The notes below the pieces were generated by a model. The model did no database searches, had not been told where the DNA came from, and saw only the letters and a program-made list of their open reading frames with translations. Positions 1,869-53,648 of a stretch of 64,000 nucleotides of DNA are shown here, in pieces; within the stretch, counting starts at the first letter, position 1, and each line of letters opens with the position of its first letter. A program made the translations under genes and the position numbers. The stretch is from Thermoanaerobaculia bacterium (GTDB lineage Bacteria; Acidobacteriota; Thermoanaerobaculia; Gp7-AA8): NCBI GenBank assembly GCA_036399015.1, contig DASWNW010000012.1, positions 2,996 through 66,995 of the forward strand, in the 5' to 3' direction.

Positions 1869-4800
1869 ATGCAAAAGCTCGCCGAAATCTGCATCCGCCG
1901 CCCGGTCTTCGCCTCGATGATCGTGCTCGCGCTCGTCGTCGTCGGCGCGGCCGGCTACTCGCAGCTCGGCGTCGACCGCTATCCCTCGGTCGACCTGCCG
2001 ACCGTCACCGTCCGCACGCAGCTCCCCGGCGCCTCGCCGGAAGAAGTCGAGTCGCTGATCACGCAGGAGGTCGAGGAGGTCGTCAACACCGTCGACGGCA
2101 TCGACGAGCTGCGCTCGGTCTCCGGCCCCGGCACCTCCAACGTCATCGCCACCTTCCGCCTCGACCGCGACCTCGAGACCGCCGCGCAGGACGTGCGCGA
2201 CCGCGTGGCGACAGTCGTCCGCCGGCTCCCCGAGGATGCCACGCCGCCGGTCGTGTCGAAGTTCGACAACGACAGCTCCCCCGTCCTCACCATCGCCCTC
2301 TCCGGCGAGCTCTCCCTCCGCGAGCTCACCGAGCTCGCCGACAAGACCGTGCGCGTGCAGCTCGAGCGCACCTCCGGCGTCGGCGAGGTGAGCGTGGTCG
2401 GAGGCCTCGAGCGCGCCATCAACGTCTGGATCGACGCCGACCGCCTGGCCGCCTACCAGCTCCCCATCACCGCCGTCCGCGAGTCCCTCGACCGCCAGAA
2501 CGCCGACCTCCCCGGCGGCAACGTCACGACGGACCGCCAGGAGCTGACCCTCAGAACGATGGGCCGCTACACCGAGCCCCAGGCCTTCGAAAACCTCGTC
2601 ATCGCGACCCGAACGAGCAGCACCGAAACCACCAGCAACCAGCAACCAGCAACAAGCAACAGCGCCGAAGGCGCTGCGGTGCCGGTCCGCATCCGCGACG
2701 TCGGCCGCGTCGAAGACGGCACGAAAGAACAGCGCAGCCTCGCCCGCCTCAACGGCATCCCCACCGTCACGCTCGAGATCCGCCGCCAGTCGGGCGCCAA
2801 CACCATCGCCGTCATCAACGGCATCAAGGCGGCGCTGCCGAACGTGCAGGCGCAGCTCCCGGCCGGCGTCGAGCTGCAGGTGATCCGCGACCAGTCGCGC
2901 TACATCGAGGCGGCCATGCACGAGATCAAGCTCCACCTCGTGCTCGGCTCGCTGCTGGCCTGCATCGTCGTGCTGATCTTCATGCGCTCCTGGCGCTCCA
3001 CGATCATCGCCGGCATCGCCATCCCCGCCTCCGTCATCGCCACGTTCGGGATGATGTGGGCGCTCGACTTCACCCTCAACAGCGTGACCATGCTGGCGCT
3101 CGTGCTGATGGTCGGCATCGTCATCGACGACGCCATCGTCGTCCTCGAGAACATCTTCCGCTTCATCGAGGAGAAGAAGATGCGCCCGATGGAGGCGGCC
3201 GCCGCGGCGACGAAGGACATCGGCCTCGCGGTCCTGGCGACCACGCTCTCGCTGGTGGTCATCTTCCTGCCGGTGTCGTTCATGTCCTCGATCTCCGGCC
3301 GCTTCCTCTACCAGTTCGGCATCACCGCCGCGGTGGCGATCATGGTCTCGCTGCTGGTGTCGTTCACCCTCACGCCGATGATGAGCTCCCGCCTGCTCAA
3401 CGCGAAGGACGCGGAGGGGGGACATGGCTCGCGCACCGGCTTCTACGGACGGATCGACGCGGTGTACATGCGCCTCCTCGAGCTGTCGATGCGCAACCGG
3501 AAGACGGTGGCGATCGTCGGCGTGGTGGTCATCCTCACCAGCATCCCGCTGTATCAGGCGGTCAAGCAGGAGTTCATCCCCACCAACGTCGACGAGGCGG
3601 AGTTCGACGTCAGCGTCAACGCGCCCCAGGGCACCAGCCTCGCCGCGATGAACGACGCCATGATGGAGATCGAGAAGGTGCTGATGGAGACGCGCGGCGT
3701 GGAGCTCGTGCTGGCGACGGCGGGCGGCGGCTTCCTCAGCTCGACCGCCAACGGCAGCGCGTACGTGCGCATCGCGCCGCACGAGGAGCGGACGCTCTCC
3801 TTCACGAAGTTCTGGCACTCGCTGAAGCAAGGCAAGCCGTGGAAGGCGTTCCAGGACAACTACTCGGCGCAGGACGTGATGCAGGAGGTGCGCAAGCGCA
3901 CGCGCCGCTTCGCGCCGATCCGCGTCGCGCCGCGTAACCCGCCCTCCTTCAACTTTGGCCCCGGCGGCCGCTCCGACATCAACTTCGTCATCCGCGGGCC
4001 GGAGATCGAGCAGCTCGCCGCGTACGCCGACGAGCTGGTGGCGCGCACCGGCAAGCTGCCCGGCTTCAACGACGTCGACACGAACCTCGAGCTCGACAAG
4101 CCGGAGCTGCGCGCGAACATCGACCGCGCCCGCGCCGCCGACCTCGGCGTCTCCACCTCCGACATCGCCACGAGCCTCAACGTCATGGTGGGCGGCGACC
4201 AGGAGGTCACCCGCTATCGCGACGCCTCGGTCAACGAGGACTACGACGTGCAACTGCGCGTCGAGCTGGCGAACCGCGACGATCCCGACGCCATCGGCCG
4301 CCTCTACGTCCCCGCGGGCAGCGGCGACCTGGTGCGCCTCGACAACGTGGTGAACATCGAGCGGGCCGTCAGCCCCTCACGCATCGACCGCCTCGACCGC
4401 GAGCGGCAGGTGACGGTCAGCGCCAGCGTCGCCCCCGGCTTCGCCCTCGCCGACCGCATCGAGGCCATGCGCGCCGAGATCGGGAAGATGGGGCTCGCCC
4501 CCGGCTACACCACCACCGTCACCGGCCGCGGGCGCGAGCTGGAGCGCACCTTCAACGAGTTCCTCTGGGCGTTCCTGCTGTCGATCGTCTTCATGTACAT
4601 GATCCTCGCCTCGCAGTTCGAGAGCACGATCCACCCGGTGACGATCCTGCTGTCGCTGCCGCTGGCGATCCCCTTCGCGCTCCTCTCGCAGTGGCTCACC
4701 GGCAGCACACTCAACCTCTACTCCGCCCTCGGCATCCTGGTGCTCTTCGGCGTCGTGAAGAAGAATTCGATCCTGCAGGTCGACCACATGAACAACCTCC

Positions 4801-5144
4801 GCGCGCACGGCATGGACCGCGACGCCGCCATCCTGCAGGCGAACCGCGACCGCCTCCGCCCCATCCTCATGACCACGCTCGCCCTCGTCGCCGGCATGCT
4901 GCCGCTCGCACTCGGCACCGGTCCGGGCGCGGAGGAGCGCCGCTCGATCGCCATCGTCGTCATCGGCGGCCAGTCGCTCTCGCTCCTGCTGACGCTCCTC
5001 GTGACGCCGGTCGCCTACTCGCTGTTCGACGACCTCGCGGAGAGCCGCCGCTGGCGCCCGGTGGCGATCCGCCTGCAGCGCGCGCGGCAACGGGTGGCGC
5101 TCGCGTTCGCGCGTCAGCGCTCGTCGAGACGATCGACGAAGTGA
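1869..5144 (+). CDS. Efflux RND transporter permease subunit (AcrB/HAE1 family)
   Basis: 1091 aa, 12-TM AcrB architecture, N-terminus MQKLAEICIRRPVFASMIVL; carries an in-frame heptamer-repeat insertion at 2630-2663. Confidence 0.92.
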   Translation: MQKLAEICIRRPVFASMIVLALVVVGAAGYSQLGVDRYPSVDLPTVTVRTQLPGASPEEVESLITQEVEEVVNTVDGIDELRSVSGPGTSNVIATFRLDRDLETAAQDVRDRVATVVRRLPEDATPPVVSKFDNDSSPVLTIALSGELSLRELTELADKTVRVQLERTSGVGEVSVVGGLERAINVWIDADRLAAYQLPITAVRESLDRQNADLPGGNVTTDRQELTLRTMGRYTEPQAFENLVIATRTSSTETTSNQQPATSNSAEGAAVPVRIRDVGRVEDGTKEQRSLARLNGIPTVTLEIRRQSGANTIAVINGIKAALPNVQAQLPAGVELQVIRDQSRYIEAAMHEIKLHLVLGSLLACIVVLIFMRSWRSTIIAGIAIPASVIATFGMMWALDFTLNSVTMLALVLMVGIVIDDAIVVLENIFRFIEEKKMRPMEAAAAATKDIGLAVLATTLSLVVIFLPVSFMSSISGRFLYQFGITAAVAIMVSLLVSFTLTPMMSSRLLNAKDAEGGHGSRTGFYGRIDAVYMRLLELSMRNRKTVAIVGVVVILTSIPLYQAVKQEFIPTNVDEAEFDVSVNAPQGTSLAAMNDAMMEIEKVLMETRGVELVLATAGGGFLSSTANGSAYVRIAPHEERTLSFTKFWHSLKQGKPWKAFQDNYSAQDVMQEVRKRTRRFAPIRVAPRNPPSFNFGPGGRSDINFVIRGPEIEQLAAYADELVARTGKLPGFNDVDTNLELDKPELRANIDRARAADLGVSTSDIATSLNVMVGGDQEVTRYRDASVNEDYDVQLRVELANRDDPDAIGRLYVPAGSGDLVRLDNVVNIERAVSPSRIDRLDRERQVTVSASVAPGFALADRIEAMRAEIGKMGLAPGYTTTVTGRGRELERTFNEFLWAFLLSIVFMYMILASQFESTIHPVTILLSLPLAIPFALLSQWLTGSTLNLYSALGILVLFGVVKKNSILQVDHMNNLRAHGMDRDAAILQANRDRLRPILMTTLALVAGMLPLALGTGPGAEERRSIAIVVIGGQSLSLLLTLLVTPVAYSLFDDLAESRRWRPVAIRLQRARQRVALAFARQRSSRRSTK

Positions 5145-5358
5145 AGCACCAGCTCCCCCGCGAACTGCACGGCGCGCCCGTCGACGAGATACGGCCCGAA
5201 CTTCCACTGCGGCACGGACCGTCCGACTCGCCGCGCCCGGTGGCGAGGTCGATGCGGCGCTCCACTGTCTTTTTCTCCGGCCCCGCGAACGTCTGAAAGC
5301 GCCCGGTCGCGATCCGCCTCCAGCGCGCGCGACCACGGATGGCGCTCGCGTTCGCCCG
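5061..5358. repeat. Direct duplication: last ~70 bp of the RND permease gene (5061-5130) is repeated at 5289-5358 (~88% identity), flanking ~160 bp of non-coding DNA
   Basis: gcgcccggtggcgatccgcctgcagcgcgcgcggcaacgggtggcgctcgcgttcgcgcgtcagcgctc vs gcgcccggtcgcgatccgcctccagcgcgcgcgaccacggatggcgctcgcgttcgcccgtcagcgctc. Confidence 0.75.
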
Positions 5359-53456: not shown

Positions 53457-53542
53457 CTTCTACCTCCAGGGAGAAAGGAGCGGAAATGTCGTTACCGCAT
53501 GGATGGTATGGGATAACGGCGGGAGGTGCAAGCGGCGCGGCT

Positions 53543-53648
53543 GAGTTCCTCGGGTTACTCGGGGGTTCCTCGGCGTTCCTCGGGGTGGGAAGCAGACGGC
53601 CGCGACCGCCGAGGAACCGAGGAACTCCGAGGAACTCCGAGGAACCGG
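53543..53648. repeat. Family D nonamer palindrome (GTTCCTCGG)n ... (CCGAGGAAC)n, intergenic copy
   Basis: Same 9-mer as in ppc, the ampG-like gene and rsmE; followed by a GGGGCGCGCGCGCCCC hairpin abutting the guaB stop. Confidence 0.85.

What the first reader, a model, noticed from the sequence alone, without database searches (positions are those of the whole stretch)
2630..53648. Palindromic minisatellite families (7-mer and 9-mer arrays) inserted in frame into conserved genes
At least four repeat families occupy nearly every intergenic gap. Family A, GGGCTCTCAGCCCG nested palindromes, is at 356, 8178, 16124 and 32781. Family B, (GTTGCTG)n arrays flanking a gcgttgcgagttgcccgggc...gcccgggtaacgcgc hairpin, is at 1732, 13482, 21496, 26655-27056 (3 tandem copies), 28396, 46401, 55558, 59023 and 61082. 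Family C, GGTGTCGGGTATCGGGTGTC palindromes, is at 12137 and 24878. Family D, (GTTCCTCGG)n/(CCGAGGAAC)n, is at 6321, 29486, 30683 and 53543. Unusually, arrays whose unit length keeps the frame (7-mer x3, 9-mer) sit inside essential genes without breaking the reading frame: ppc gains a 50-aa SSGSSG...EEPRGT insertion; rsmE gains EEPRNPEEPRNPEE; the AmpG-like MFS gains SSGSSGSSES; the RND pump gains NQQPATSN; A2M gains PGSQPGAP. This suggests active spread of hairpin-forming repeats with selection only for frame preservation.
Basis: seen in the sequence. Interest (0 to 1): 0.7.

Follow-up and report, generated by a model that had tools for sequence, protein, structure and literature searches.

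The report
Hairpin repeats with tandem-unit arms
This stretch of an uncultured soil-type acidobacterium (class Thermoanaerobaculia) carries many small hairpin-forming DNA repeats whose arms are built from 7- to 10-base units. They sit at about two thirds of the gene boundaries, and a few lie in frame in flexible loops of essential proteins, which makes them an acidobacterial variation on known REP, STRR and Rickettsia-type repeats rather than a new kind of system.

Summary
Heptamer arrays are strongly enriched: 25 lag-7 arrays against 0-2 for neighbouring lags, and 26 pattern matches against 0 expected. The arrays pair into long hairpins, and 14 of 22 intergenic gaps carry an element.

Five repeat pieces lie in frame in ppc, the RND pump, the MFS transporter, rsmE and A2M. 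Only ppc (+50 aa), RND and MFS truly gain length. In rsmE (+2 aa) and A2M (+2 to +5 aa) the repeat mostly replaces the native loop.

Comparison with Thermoanaerobaculia relatives shows:
- clean empty sites, for example an overlapping TGATG stop/start where the window has a 133-nt hairpin;
- identical arm variants at unrelated loci in different genomes;
- the same gaps and protein loops occupied in different lineages by different unit families.

The elements are therefore dispersed, copy-and-paste palindromic repeats. Families A and B look like REP/REPIN/BIME. The others look like cyanobacterial STRR hairpins. Their arrays then change length, probably by slippage. Inside genes, only stop-free, hydrophilic readings in disordered loops survive.

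No transposase, target duplication or U-tract terminator was found, so the mobilising mechanism is inferred. Verdict: a new variant of a known kind, of moderate interest.

The parts
356..431 (.). E1, family A doublet (REPIN-like). Two inverted copies of GGAGCGGCGGGCTTCAGCCCGCCG lie between the SCFA-transporter gene end and the MFP gene.
   Evidence: 27-nt arms are 100% complementary and the fold is -65 kcal/mol. An identical 28-mer occurs in relative L002.
1732..1864 (.). E2, a (GTTGTCG)n...(CGACAAC)n hairpin inserted between the MFP stop codon and the RND start codon.
   Evidence: Relatives L004, L005 and L006 have an overlapping TGATG/TAATG stop-start here, which is an empty site. The right arm shares an identical 28-nt stretch with an element at a different locus in L126.
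2627..2662 (+). E3, a one-armed (ACCAGCA)4.3 array in frame in the RND pump, coding [10 protein letters not shown].
   Evidence: Basal Acidobacteriota have a tight turn here. Thermoanaerobaculia orthologs carry ACCAGCA, ACCGACA or ACCGCCA arrays at this site.
6321..6470 (+). E4, a full (GTTCCTCGG)8...(CCGAGGAAC)n hairpin in frame in ppc, adding 50 aa.
   Evidence: In the AlphaFold model, residues 307-355 have pLDDT about 30 and lie between two confident helices.
8170..8256 (.). E5, a family A doublet downstream of the ppc stop codon, in a convergent gap.
   Evidence: It shares a 28-mer with E17.
12137..12222 (.). E6, a family C (GGTGTCG)n hairpin in the divergent gap between the second Ku gene and the PLD gene.
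   Evidence: Its left arm has the same order of variant units as E11, with a 20-nt identical stretch.
13478..13590 (.). E7, a family B element: outer GTTGCTG units plus the GTTGCGN/CCCGGGC core hairpin. It fills the convergent PLD/hypothetical gap.
   Evidence: Alignment A1.
15684..15706 (.). E8, a short one-armed (GCAACGN)3 array just downstream of the A2M stop codon.
16124..16160 (-). E9, a single family A palindrome (half a doublet) in frame in A2M, coding SGPPGSQPGAP.
   Evidence: The loop is 16 aa against 11-14 aa in homologs.
21493..21702 (.). E10, the largest family B element: (TGGTTGC)9, then the core hairpin, then a degenerate (GCAACNN)n arm. It lies between the A2M start and the GGDEF-EAL stop.
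   Evidence: -135 kcal/mol. The orthologous gap in L126 is 48 nt and empty, and L125 holds another family.
24875..24964 (.). E11, a family C hairpin between the GGDEF-EAL start and the DUF2071 stop.
   Evidence: Relatives carry different hairpins here.
26217..26290 (.). E12, a (GTTGCCG)4 plus (GTAGCGC)n array after the stop codon of a small ORF.
26655..27056 (.). E13, three tandem copies (136-nt period) of the family B core plus a small GGTGAC hairpin. It is a BIME/REPIN-cluster-like array.
   Evidence: TRF gives 2.6 copies at 94% match.
28396..28476 (.). E14, a (GTTRCTG)n...(CAGCAAC)n hairpin in the convergent LEA_2/hypothetical gap.
   Evidence: The same gap holds a GTTGTCG hairpin in L126 and a 'GTGTCATCCCGCG' palindrome in L125.
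29485..29523 (+). E15, a one-armed (GTTCCTCGG)4 array in frame in the central loop of the MFS transporter (PRGSSGSSGSSES).
   Evidence: L126 is empty here and L125 has both arms.
30682..30726 (+). E16, a one-armed (CCGAGGAAC)n array in frame in rsmE (EEPRNPEEPRNPEE).
   Evidence: Only the closest orthologs share it. P0123 has both arms. About 15 other orthologs carry PPTANRQPPT at this loop, shown as (GCCAACC)4 at DNA level in L136.
32772..32867 (.). E17, a family A doublet between citrate synthase and the glyoxalase gene.
46400..46484 (.). E18, a family B core hairpin (GTAG-containing) between the SpoU methylase and the decarboxylase gene.
53535..53655 (.). E19, an intergenic hairpin of the 9/10-mer GTTCCTCGG family, downstream of IMPDH.
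   Evidence: L127 has a (GGGCCGA)n hairpin at the same gap.
55558..55650 (.). E20, (GTTGCTG/GTTACTC)n arms plus a degenerate family B core.
59022..59114 (.). E21, a (GTTGCTS)4...(SAGCAAC)4 hairpin that exactly fills the space between the DUF2203 stop codon and the HAD start codon.
   Evidence: Relatives L127, L130 and L131 each have a different tandem-armed hairpin at this junction.
61081..61197 (.). E22, a family B left half followed by a (GTTGCCG)5...(CGGCAAC)n hairpin, between fabF and an FAD-oxidoreductase gene.
   Evidence: L130 has a (GTTCCTCGG)4 hairpin immediately beyond the end of fabF (fabF position).

Best explanation
The window, from a Thermoanaerobaculia (Acidobacteriota) genome, carries several families of small, non-autonomous palindromic repeats.

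What the families are:
- Families A and B behave like REP/REPIN/BIME elements. They have a conserved hairpin core, occur as inverted doublets and form tandem clusters.
- The others are hairpins whose two arms are tandem arrays of a 7-, 8- or 9/10-nt unit. They resemble the short tandemly repeated repetitive (STRR) hairpins of cyanobacteria.

How I think they work:
- Shown: whole elements are copied to new places. This is seen in empty versus filled orthologous sites and in identical arm variants at unrelated loci and in different genomes.
- Shown: they accumulate at gene ends and between cistrons.
- Inferred: once in place, the arrays grow, shrink and homogenise by replication slippage. The two arms stay complementary either through intra-hairpin template switching or through selection on the stem.
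- Shown: occasional entry into coding DNA survives only where the encoded peptide is harmless. That means stop-free units, a hydrophilic reading orientation and disordered surface loops. The same few permissive loops are therefore hit repeatedly by different unit families.
- Inferred, weakly: entry is helped by microhomology. The 9-mer arrays in ppc and rsmE abut native Glu-Glu codons (GAGGAA/GAGGAG) that match the unit at 7-8 of 9 bases.
- Inferred: the agent that moves them is most likely a trans-acting enzyme that recognises single-stranded hairpins, of the RAYT or IS200/IS605 Y1 type. It was not found in the window.
For: Enrichment and structure.

Copy-and-paste:
- E2 sits where three relatives have an overlapping TGATG/TAATG stop-start.
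- The ppc empty site GAGCTG|CCCGCGGTCGAGGAGCCG contrasts with filled sites in the window, L001 and L003.
- The MFS loop is empty in L126, and the A2M/GGDEF gap is empty in L126.

Common descent of copies:
- An identical 28-nt arm stretch, with the same unit-variant order, links window E2 and an element at a different locus in L126.
- A 20-nt stretch links E6 and E11, and a 28-nt stretch links E1 and L002.
- Family B copies share a ~90-nt alignable core with a compensated GTTG/CAAC to GTAG/CTAC change.

Recurrent colonisation:
- The ppc site holds the 9-mer family in four lineages that are not monophyletic on an NJ tree, and a (GGTTGGC)4...(GCCAACC)n hairpin in L135.
- The rsmE loop holds the 9-mer family or (GCCAACC)4.
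- The RND loop holds three unit variants.
- The intergenic junctions LEA_2/129aa, DUF2203/HAD, IMPDH-stop and fabF-stop hold different families in each relative.

Protein-level filter:
- Unit translations and hydropathy.
- AlphaFold pLDDT about 30 across ppc residues 307-355, between helices 266-294 and 360-385.

Precedents:
- REPs inside genes and GTAG/CGTC tags (PMC3733652).
- REPIN doublets and tandem REPIN clusters (PMC3116915).
- 7-bp STRR hairpins between hupS and hupL (PMC2670836).
- In-frame Rickettsia palindromic elements (PMC10969869).
Against: - No transposase, RAYT or integrase is encoded in the 64 kb (Pfam).
- No target-site duplication is visible at the one fully resolved insertion, E2 (flanks).
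- Many unit sequences (GTTGCTG, GTTGCCG, GTTGTCG, GGTGTCG, GTTCCTCGG, and GGCCGAG, GAGTCTCA, CACAGCT in relatives) share one architecture. That is awkward for a single sequence-specific enzyme.
- One-armed (GTTGCNN)n arrays occur in more than 15 phyla. Part of the phenomenon is therefore a general simple-sequence-repeat process, not a lineage-specific mobile element.
- rsmE and A2M show near length-neutral replacement rather than simple insertion.
- Repeated occupancy of the same gaps could reflect host function instead of selfish spread.
Confidence: 0.68

Rival explanations
1. Host-selected structural RNA or DNA elements. On this reading the hairpins are kept at gene ends because they act as U-tract-independent or bidirectional terminators, mRNA 3'-end stabilisers, or RNase III processing sites. 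Sequence turnover would be neutral as long as a stem remains, and the coding copies would be by-products.
For: - The hairpin's position is conserved while its sequence is not, at four or more orthologous junctions.
- Four of the five convergent gaps scored are occupied. The fifth also holds an element (E17) if the doubtful ORF at 32368-32829 is not a real gene.
- Only 1 of 3 divergent (promoter) gaps is occupied.
- E21 exactly fills a stop-to-start intercistronic space.
- STRR hairpins between hupS and hupL have been proposed to raise transcript stability (PMC2670836).
Against: - None of the elements in the part scanned (20000-33000) has a U-tract, and that scan found no more terminator-like sites than shuffles.
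- Several sites are simply empty in close relatives, so the hairpin is dispensable there.
- G:U versus A:C mismatches follow the local coding-strand base skew rather than favouring the transcribed strand.
- Full hairpins inside ppc and MFS coding regions would be odd places for terminators.
- This rival is compatible with a selfish origin followed by co-option.
Confidence: 0.3
2. Purely local origin. Each array would arise in place by replication slippage of a chance proto-repeat, and the inverted arm by fold-back template switching. There would be no transfer of sequence between loci.
For: - Heptamer simple-sequence repeats are a general feature of many bacterial genomes (PMC4692102).
- One-armed GTTGC arrays occur across phyla.
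- The boundaries of the ppc and rsmE arrays coincide with native GAGGAA/GAGGAG codons that resemble the unit.
- Unit numbers differ between orthologous copies.
Against: - The same units, the same order of variant units and the same non-repeat cores recur at unrelated loci and in different genomes.
- E2 appears as a complete 133-nt two-armed element at a site that has no proto-repeat in three relatives.
- Each genome uses a limited set of units at many loci.
Confidence: 0.12
3. The peptide segments are ancestral low-complexity linkers, and the DNA repeats are a secondary consequence of coding for them.
For: - The RND loop carries a 10-30 aa Ser/Thr/Asn-rich insert in all Thermoanaerobaculia orthologs, including ones without a recognisable array (P0259, P0260, P0264).
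- Loop lengths in rsmE and A2M are almost unchanged.
Against: - Most ppc orthologs have only 4 residues at the site, and the filled alleles carry an obvious DNA palindrome.
- The same DNA units also occur in non-coding gaps (E19, L130).
- In the RND loop the peptides change together with the DNA unit across lineages: NQQPATS, NRQPTTD and NRQPPTA each correspond to one altered heptamer.
Confidence: 0.08
4. Assembly artefact, or phase-variable contingency loci.
For: Repeats are hard to assemble, and heptamer arrays inside genes could in principle shift the frame.
Against: - Independent assemblies from different samples carry the same families at the same sites.
- All five host genes keep intact frames and full-length Pfam matches.
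- In-frame arrays are conserved among relatives, which is the opposite of on/off switching.
Confidence: 0.03

Closest known systems
Cyanobacterial STRR (short tandemly repeated repetitive) sequences
   Same: - Tandem heptanucleotide units dispersed at many loci.
- Able to form hairpins, including in intercistronic spacers such as hupS-hupL (PMC2670836).
- Present inside a structured gene, the RNase P RNA gene (Vioque 1997, known to me from its title as listed in the references of PMC2858038; its placement in helix P12 is from my own knowledge).
- Function unknown.
   Different: - Different phylum (Acidobacteriota) and high G+C content.
- Different units (GTTGCNN, GTTGTCG, GGTGTCG), plus 8- and 9/10-nt units.
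- Documented here in frame inside protein-coding genes, and with empty/filled orthologous sites.
REP / REPIN / BIME elements (RAYT-associated)
   Same: - Families A and B are short GC-rich palindromes.
- They are mostly extragenic and lie downstream of genes.
- They are arranged as inverted doublets that form a larger hairpin, and occur in tandem clusters including their flanks (E13), as described for REPINs (PMC3116915).
- Many family B copies contain GTAG, and two of the family A doublets (E5, E17) contain CGTC (PMC3733652 describes both tags and REPs inside genes).
   Different: - No RAYT has been found.
- The GTAG lies inside the stem and is replaced by GTTG in some copies.
- The arms extend into tandem heptamer arrays, which classical REPs do not have.
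Rickettsia palindromic elements (RPE)
   Same: Palindromic repeats of 100-150 bp inserted in frame into unrelated housekeeping genes, tolerated because they code for harmless surface peptides (PMC10969869).
   Different: - RPEs are unique-sequence families without tandem-unit arms.
- There is no sequence similarity to them.
- Here the intergenic copies dominate, and the coding copies are often reduced to one arm.
Long heptameric simple sequence repeats of Xanthomonas and Nostoc, (GGGAATC)n and (GGGGAYT)n
   Same: - Heterogeneous heptamer arrays, typically about 4 units.
- Hundreds of loci per genome, over-represented in non-coding DNA close to gene ends (PMC4692102).
   Different: - Those units are G-tract repeats interpreted as quadruplex formers.
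- A palindromic two-arm arrangement and in-frame coding copies were not the reported features.
Bacterial MITEs (for example Correia, Nezha)
   Same: Small non-autonomous elements with inverted ends, insertion polymorphism and occasional in-frame fusion with host ORFs (PMC10969869).
   Different: No target-site duplication, no recognisable parent insertion sequence, and ends made of tandem short units.

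Membership tests
REP/REPIN | Short (about 20-40 nt) imperfect palindrome repeated many times, mainly extragenic. | tested here: met
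   Family A occurs at 4 sites in 64 kb and also in relative L002. Family B occurs at 6 sites (8 copies, counting the E13 triplet) with a shared core. All are extragenic except E9.
REP/REPIN | Two REPs in inverted orientation with a spacer, forming a larger hairpin (the doublet as the unit). | tested here: met
   E1, E5 and E17 are inverted doublets of a self-pairing ~20-nt unit, with folds of -62 to -65 kcal/mol. E9 is a singlet.
REP/REPIN | Conserved GTAG (or CGTC) tetranucleotide at one end of the palindrome. | tested here: inconclusive
   GTAGCGC is present in E12, E13, E18 and E22 but is GTTGCGN in E7 and E10, and it pairs within the stem. Family A ends in CCCGTCG in E5 and E17 but in CCCGCCG in E1.
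REP/REPIN | A cognate RAYT (Y1/HUH transposase) gene in the genome, flanked by the repeats. | not testable with these tools
   None of the ~48 window ORFs scanned against Pfam is a transposase. The rest of the source genome is not available.
STRR (cyanobacteria) | Tandem heptanucleotide units dispersed at many loci and able to form hairpins. | tested here: met
   There are 25 lag-7 arrays, and most pair with an inverted array within 100 nt.
STRR (cyanobacteria) | Occurrence in heterocystous cyanobacteria with the STRR1-3 unit sequences. | tested here: not met
   Homologs of the window's proteins are named Thermoanaerobaculia, and the units differ. This is a functional and architectural analogue, not a member.
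Rickettsia palindromic elements | Palindromic element inserted in frame in protein-coding genes at structurally permissive positions. | tested here: met
   The ppc insert adds 50 aa in a loop with pLDDT about 30. The MFS central loop and an RND turn also carry in-frame copies.
Rickettsia palindromic elements | Sequence membership in the RPE-1 to RPE-10 families, Rickettsia host. | not tested
   The taxon is different and the tandem-unit arms are unlike RPEs. No RPE consensus was compared.
MITE | Terminal inverted repeats plus target-site duplication. | tested here: not met
   Inverted arms are present. However, at E2 the filled site TGA-G[TGTTGTC...GACAACA]TCTA-ATG, compared with the empty TGATG, shows no duplication.
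MITE | A related autonomous insertion sequence sharing the ends. | not testable with these tools
   No insertion sequence is present in the window or in the fetched relatives' loci.
Intrinsic terminator | GC-rich stem-loop followed by a U-tract. | tested here: not met
   The scan of 20000-33000 found 4 sites against 5.4 expected, and none lies at the elements.
Phase-variable contingency SSR | Unit number changes switch the reading frame or promoter on and off. | tested here: not met
   All host genes are intact, and the arrays are kept in frame across relatives.

The most novel reading that the evidence does not exclude
The tandem-armed hairpin may be the product of a sequence-independent, structure-templated process that operates in several phyla. 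It was also seen here in Phycisphaerales L107, a deltaproteobacterial MAG (L056) and other Thermoanaerobaculia.

On this reading, an as yet unidentified activity repeatedly builds and re-homogenises hairpins at gene boundaries. Candidates are hairpin-primed template switching at stalled forks, or an enzyme that nicks and re-copies stem units. The result would be genome-specific unit 'dialects' at positionally conserved sites. The same activity would enter coding loops through 7-9-nt microhomology, overwriting native loop sequence, as in rsmE and A2M. That would be a dispersed concerted-evolution system rather than a classical transposon.
Probability: 0.2. Interest if true: 0.7.

Novelty: new variant of a known kind. 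Interest (0 to 1): 0.5.

Why it matters
If the picture holds, Thermoanaerobaculia offer a clear natural experiment on how small palindromic repeats invade genomes and proteins.

- The same protein loops (ppc, rsmE, RND, MFS) and the same gene junctions are colonised again and again by different unit families.
- Empty alleles are available for comparison.
- There is a visible protein-level filter: stop-free units, a hydrophilic orientation and disordered loops.

This makes two long-standing questions testable: why heptamer-based repeats are so common in large bacterial genomes, and whether REP/STRR-type hairpins are selfish, functional or both.

There is also a practical side. These repeats break short-read assemblies, create spurious long ORF starts, and add low-complexity inserts that can mislead annotation and structure prediction.

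Tried and rejected
- **Rfam scan of the window:** no family matched.
- **Terminator and promoter scan of 20-33 kb:** no U-tract terminators at the elements.
- **G:U versus A:C asymmetry of stems,** as a test for selection on the transcribed RNA. The asymmetry is strong for family B (for example E10, 15 G:U pairs against 2). However, it tracks the local coding-strand base skew and is on the untranscribed strand as often as not, so it is not evidence for RNA-level selection.
- **Search for target-site duplications at outermost paired bases:** nothing consistent.
- **Pfam scan of about 48 window ORFs for a transposase or RAYT:** none found.
- **Genome-contig scan for (GTTGCNN)x4:** It shows breadth across phyla but gives no per-genome counts and did not recover the source genome.
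- **Metagenome-contig search with the MBL protein:** only 8 loci at 70-89% identity. They were useful for junction comparisons, but no near-identical strain was found.
- **Viral-contig scan for the 9-mer triplet:** 5 hits, all unrelated lower-GC contigs where the string sits in a plain, one-armed tandem array with no inverted partner, probably coding an acidic Glu/Pro repeat. No link to these elements.
- **Literature searches** for a prior description in Acidobacteria found none. Vioque 1997 on STRR in RNase P RNA is not held.
- **P0123 DNA** (the rsmE allele with both arms) could not be fetched, so that case rests on the protein sequence only.

Full report
**Source and gene content**

The window is 66-72% G+C. 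Its PEP carboxylase, RsmE and RND-pump proteins find their best homologs (86%, 87% and 94% identity) in metagenome-assembled genomes named Thermoanaerobaculia, a class of Acidobacteriota. No protein is identical to a database entry, so the source genome itself was not available.

- AcrB-type RND pump, 1869-5144
- PEP carboxylase, 5409-8165
- bacterial alpha-2-macroglobulin, 15718-21465, minus strand
- MFS transporter, 28935-30167
- RsmE, 30192-30890

Yes. Tandem Repeats Finder lists dozens of period-7 arrays and several of period 8-10. A simple autocorrelation census finds 25 arrays of at least three units at lag 7. Lags 5, 6, 8 and 10-13 give 0-2.

The pattern GTTGNNN x4 with one mismatch allowed matches 26 times against 0 in 100 shuffles. 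The GTTCCTCGG doublet matches 10 times against 0.01 expected.

Most arrays have an inverted partner within 100 nt. The predicted hairpins are very stable, from -36 to -146 kcal/mol.

Using a gene map based on third-position G+C and Pfam, 14 of 22 intergenic gaps of 40 nt or more carry an element. The elements make up about a third of intergenic bases. So it is 'two thirds of gaps', not 'nearly every gap'.

**Anatomy**

- **Family A** (356, 8170, 32772; half copy at 16124) is an inverted doublet of a ~20-nt self-pairing unit. This is the REPIN arrangement (PMC3116915).
- **Family B** is a true dispersed family. Copies at 13478, 21493, 26655-27056 (three tandem 136-nt copies), 46400, 55558 and 61081 align over about 90 nt. 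The consensus is GTTGCGC-GTTGCGN-GTAGCGC-GTTGCCCGGGCC...GCCCGGGCAAC-GCGC. A GTTG-to-GTAG change in one arm is compensated by CAAC-to-CTAC in the other.
- **The remaining elements** are hairpins whose arms are plain tandem arrays:
  - GTTGCTG (28396, 59022)
  - GTTGCCG (61118)
  - GTTGTCG (1732)
  - GGTGTCG (12137, 24875)
  - the 8-11-nt GTTCCTCGG family (6321, 53535, and one-armed at 29485 and 30682)

**Coding copies**

All five peptides exist, but alignment with about 120 orthologs each changes the story.

- **ppc.** Most orthologs have four residues (PA-VE) between SDEL and EPYR, and the window has 50 more. At the DNA level the empty site GAGCTG|CCCGCGGTCGAGGAGCCG contrasts with full (GTTCCTCGG)n...(CCGAGGAAC)n hairpins of different unit number in the window, L001 and L003. 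An AlphaFold model (pTM 0.85) gives pLDDT about 30 and no secondary structure for residues 307-355, between confident helices 266-294 and 360-385.
- **MFS.** The central loop is empty in L126, carries the left arm only in the window (about +6 aa), and carries both arms in L125 (about +23 aa).
- **RND pump.** Basal Acidobacteriota have a tight turn (VNG-APV). All Thermoanaerobaculia orthologs have a 10-30-aa low-complexity insert. In many of them it contains a heptamer array whose unit differs by lineage: ACCAGCA (TSNQQPA), ACCGACA (TDNRQPT) or ACCGCCA (TANRQPP).
- **rsmE.** The loop is 46 aa against 44 in orthologs. The array therefore replaces native sequence rather than adding 14 residues. 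Only the four closest orthologs share it, one of which (P0123) has both arms. About 15 other orthologs carry PPTANRQPPT at the same loop, shown as (GCCAACC)4 at the DNA level in L136.
- **A2M.** The peptide is coded by one family A palindrome that closely resembles the right half of E5. The loop is 16 aa against 11-14 in homologs.

**Evidence for dispersal rather than local birth**

1. The 133-nt element E2 lies between the MFP stop codon and the RND start codon. Three relatives with RND pumps 89-94% identical have the overlapping stop-start TGATG or TAATG there.
2. The right arm of E2 shares an identical 28-nt stretch, including the order of CGACAAC and TGACAAC variants, with a hairpin at a different locus in L126. 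E6 and E11 share the unit order GGTGTCG-GGTATCG-GGTGTC. E1 shares a 28-mer with an element in L002.
3. Loci syntenic with window 21-32 kb (L125, L126) and 53-62 kb (L127, L130, L131) show the same gaps occupied by different families:

| Gap | Window | L125 | L126 | L127 | L130 | L131 |
|---|---|---|---|---|---|---|
| LEA_2 / hypothetical | GTTGCTG hairpin | unrelated 'GTGTCATCCCGCG' palindrome | GTTGTCG hairpin | – | – | – |
| DUF2203 / HAD | GTTGCTG | – | – | GGCCGAG | 8-mer GAGTCTCA | GAGTCGG-type |
| After IMPDH | 9-mer | – | – | GGGCCGA | – | – |
| After fabF | family B | – | – | – | 9-mer | – |
| A2M / GGDEF-EAL | 210-nt element (E10) | other family | 48 nt, empty | – | – | – |

4. The ppc site also carries a complete (GGTTGGC)4...(GCCAACC)n hairpin in L135. 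On a neighbour-joining tree the four 9-mer-filled alleles are not monophyletic; P0001 is sister to the empty P0002. That tree has no support values. I read this as recurrent colonisation of a few permissive sites, though one old insertion followed by several precise losses is not excluded.

**What filters the coding copies**

Translating the units shows that the CAAC orientation of the GTTG-type heptamers gives Pro/Thr/Asn/Gln-rich peptides (mean hydropathy -1.7 to -2.6). The GTTG orientation gives Val/Cys/Trp/Leu-rich peptides (+0.5 to +2.1). Every one-armed heptamer array seen inside a gene is in the CAAC orientation.

The 9-mer is stop-free in all six frames and hydrophilic in five. This fits its being the family most often found as a full hairpin inside genes. 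Units such as GTAGCGC, GTTGCTA and TGAGACTC contain stop codons and were seen only outside genes.

Selection is therefore on more than frame.

**Entry mechanism: what is inferred**

The 3' boundary of the 9-mer array coincides with native Glu-Glu codons in both ppc (GTC GAG GAG CC) and rsmE (CTC GAG GAA G). These match the unit CCGAGGAAC at 7-8 of 9 bases. In MFS the first unit overlies the native Pro-Arg codons.

This fits either target choice by base-pairing, as in IS200/IS605-type single-strand transposition, or microhomology-mediated template switching. I cannot separate the two.

No transposase is encoded in the window, and no target duplication is visible.

Arrays at orthologous sites differ in unit number and sometimes in every unit. 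That points to slippage-driven turnover after arrival, which is an inference.

**Function**

No Rfam family matches. The 20-33 kb stretch scanned shows no U-tract terminators at the elements.

The G:U mismatches in stems follow the local coding-strand skew rather than the transcribed strand. Several sites are empty in relatives.

A role as terminators or stabilisers remains possible. Four of the five convergent gaps scored are occupied, and the fifth also holds an element (E17) if the doubtful ORF at 32368-32829 is not a real gene; only one of three divergent gaps is occupied. It is not required by the data.

**Wider distribution**

Most are one-armed. Inverted partners were present in 10 of 120 arrays, including three Thermoanaerobaculia, Phycisphaerales and Tepidisphaeraceae. 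L107 (Phycisphaerales) has 13 heptamer arrays in 8 kb, several of them paired.

Three 22-kb loci from close relatives (L001, L002, L006) have 0-1 heptamer arrays, against 25 in the 64-kb window. Repeat load is therefore lineage-specific, although short-read assemblies may under-represent repeats.

**Comparison with known systems**

- Heptamer repeats able to form hairpins in intercistronic spacers are known as STRR in cyanobacteria (PMC2670836).
- Long heptameric simple-sequence repeats near gene ends are known in Xanthomonas and Nostoc (PMC4692102).
- REP, REPIN and BIME elements, their tandem clusters and REPs inside genes are known (PMC3116915, PMC3733652).
- In-frame palindromic elements are the hallmark of Rickettsia RPEs (PMC10969869).

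The present case combines these features in a phylum where I found no prior description. It adds recurrent, family-independent colonisation of the same protein loops and junctions. I therefore class it as a new variant of a known kind. The mechanism of movement is still open.

Noticed in passing
window 10198-11106 and 11099-~12100 (minus strand): Two adjacent Ku-domain genes (Pfam PF02735, E 2e-47 and 1e-36) indicate a non-homologous end-joining system. The longest ORF of the second one runs through hairpin E6, so its true start is probably downstream of 12137. An NAD-dependent ligase (LigA) lies at 42718-44685.
   Followed up: partly
window 40641-40760 (plus strand): The 21-nt tandem repeat (4.6 copies) found by TRF looks like coding sequence. 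It reads as a heptad peptide repeat, ERFDR(L/I)D, at the start of a small ORF upstream of hrcA. It is a protein-level repeat unrelated to the hairpin families.
   Followed up: partly
window 30154-30187: A one-armed 8-mer array (CTGTACGA x4.2) spans the MFS stop codon and ends 5 nt before the rsmE ATG. Relatives L125 and L136 have a patatin gene between these two genes, plus a tandem-armed hairpin just upstream of rsmE: the 8-mer GAGTCGCA in L125 and the 7-mer GAACGAT in L136.
   Followed up: partly
L125 1130-1410, 5862-5933, 7250-7375; L126 14166-14237: Relatives carry further palindromic families absent from the window. One is 'GTGTCATCCCGCG...CGCGGGATGACAC', present in several copies. Another is 'GTGGAGGACAGGCAATCCTGCCTGTCC', shared by L125 and L126.
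   Followed up: no
L107 (Phycisphaerales MAG, 8 kb), L091 (Okeania, 8 kb), L056 (deltaproteobacterial MAG): Heptamer arrays are very dense in other phyla: 13, 27 and 9 arrays per 8 kb. L107 and L056 contain two-armed hairpins of several different units, so the tandem-armed hairpin architecture is not confined to Acidobacteriota.
   Followed up: partly
window, whole: GC skew flips with gene orientation, so the coding strand is C-rich throughout: negative over 1-8 kb and 28-32 kb, where genes are on the plus strand, and positive where genes are on the minus strand. The skew therefore reflects transcription direction rather than a replication landmark.
   Followed up: partly
L127 12440-12490: One array switches from (GTTGCTG)2 to (GTTGTCG)3 without interruption. 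This suggests that these two unit 'families' interconvert within a single array.
   Followed up: no
window 28370-28395 and 28477-28497: Small extra GC-rich palindromes flank hairpin E14. One of them (GCGGTAGCGCACGCGCTACCGC) includes the LEA_2 stop codon.
   Followed up: no
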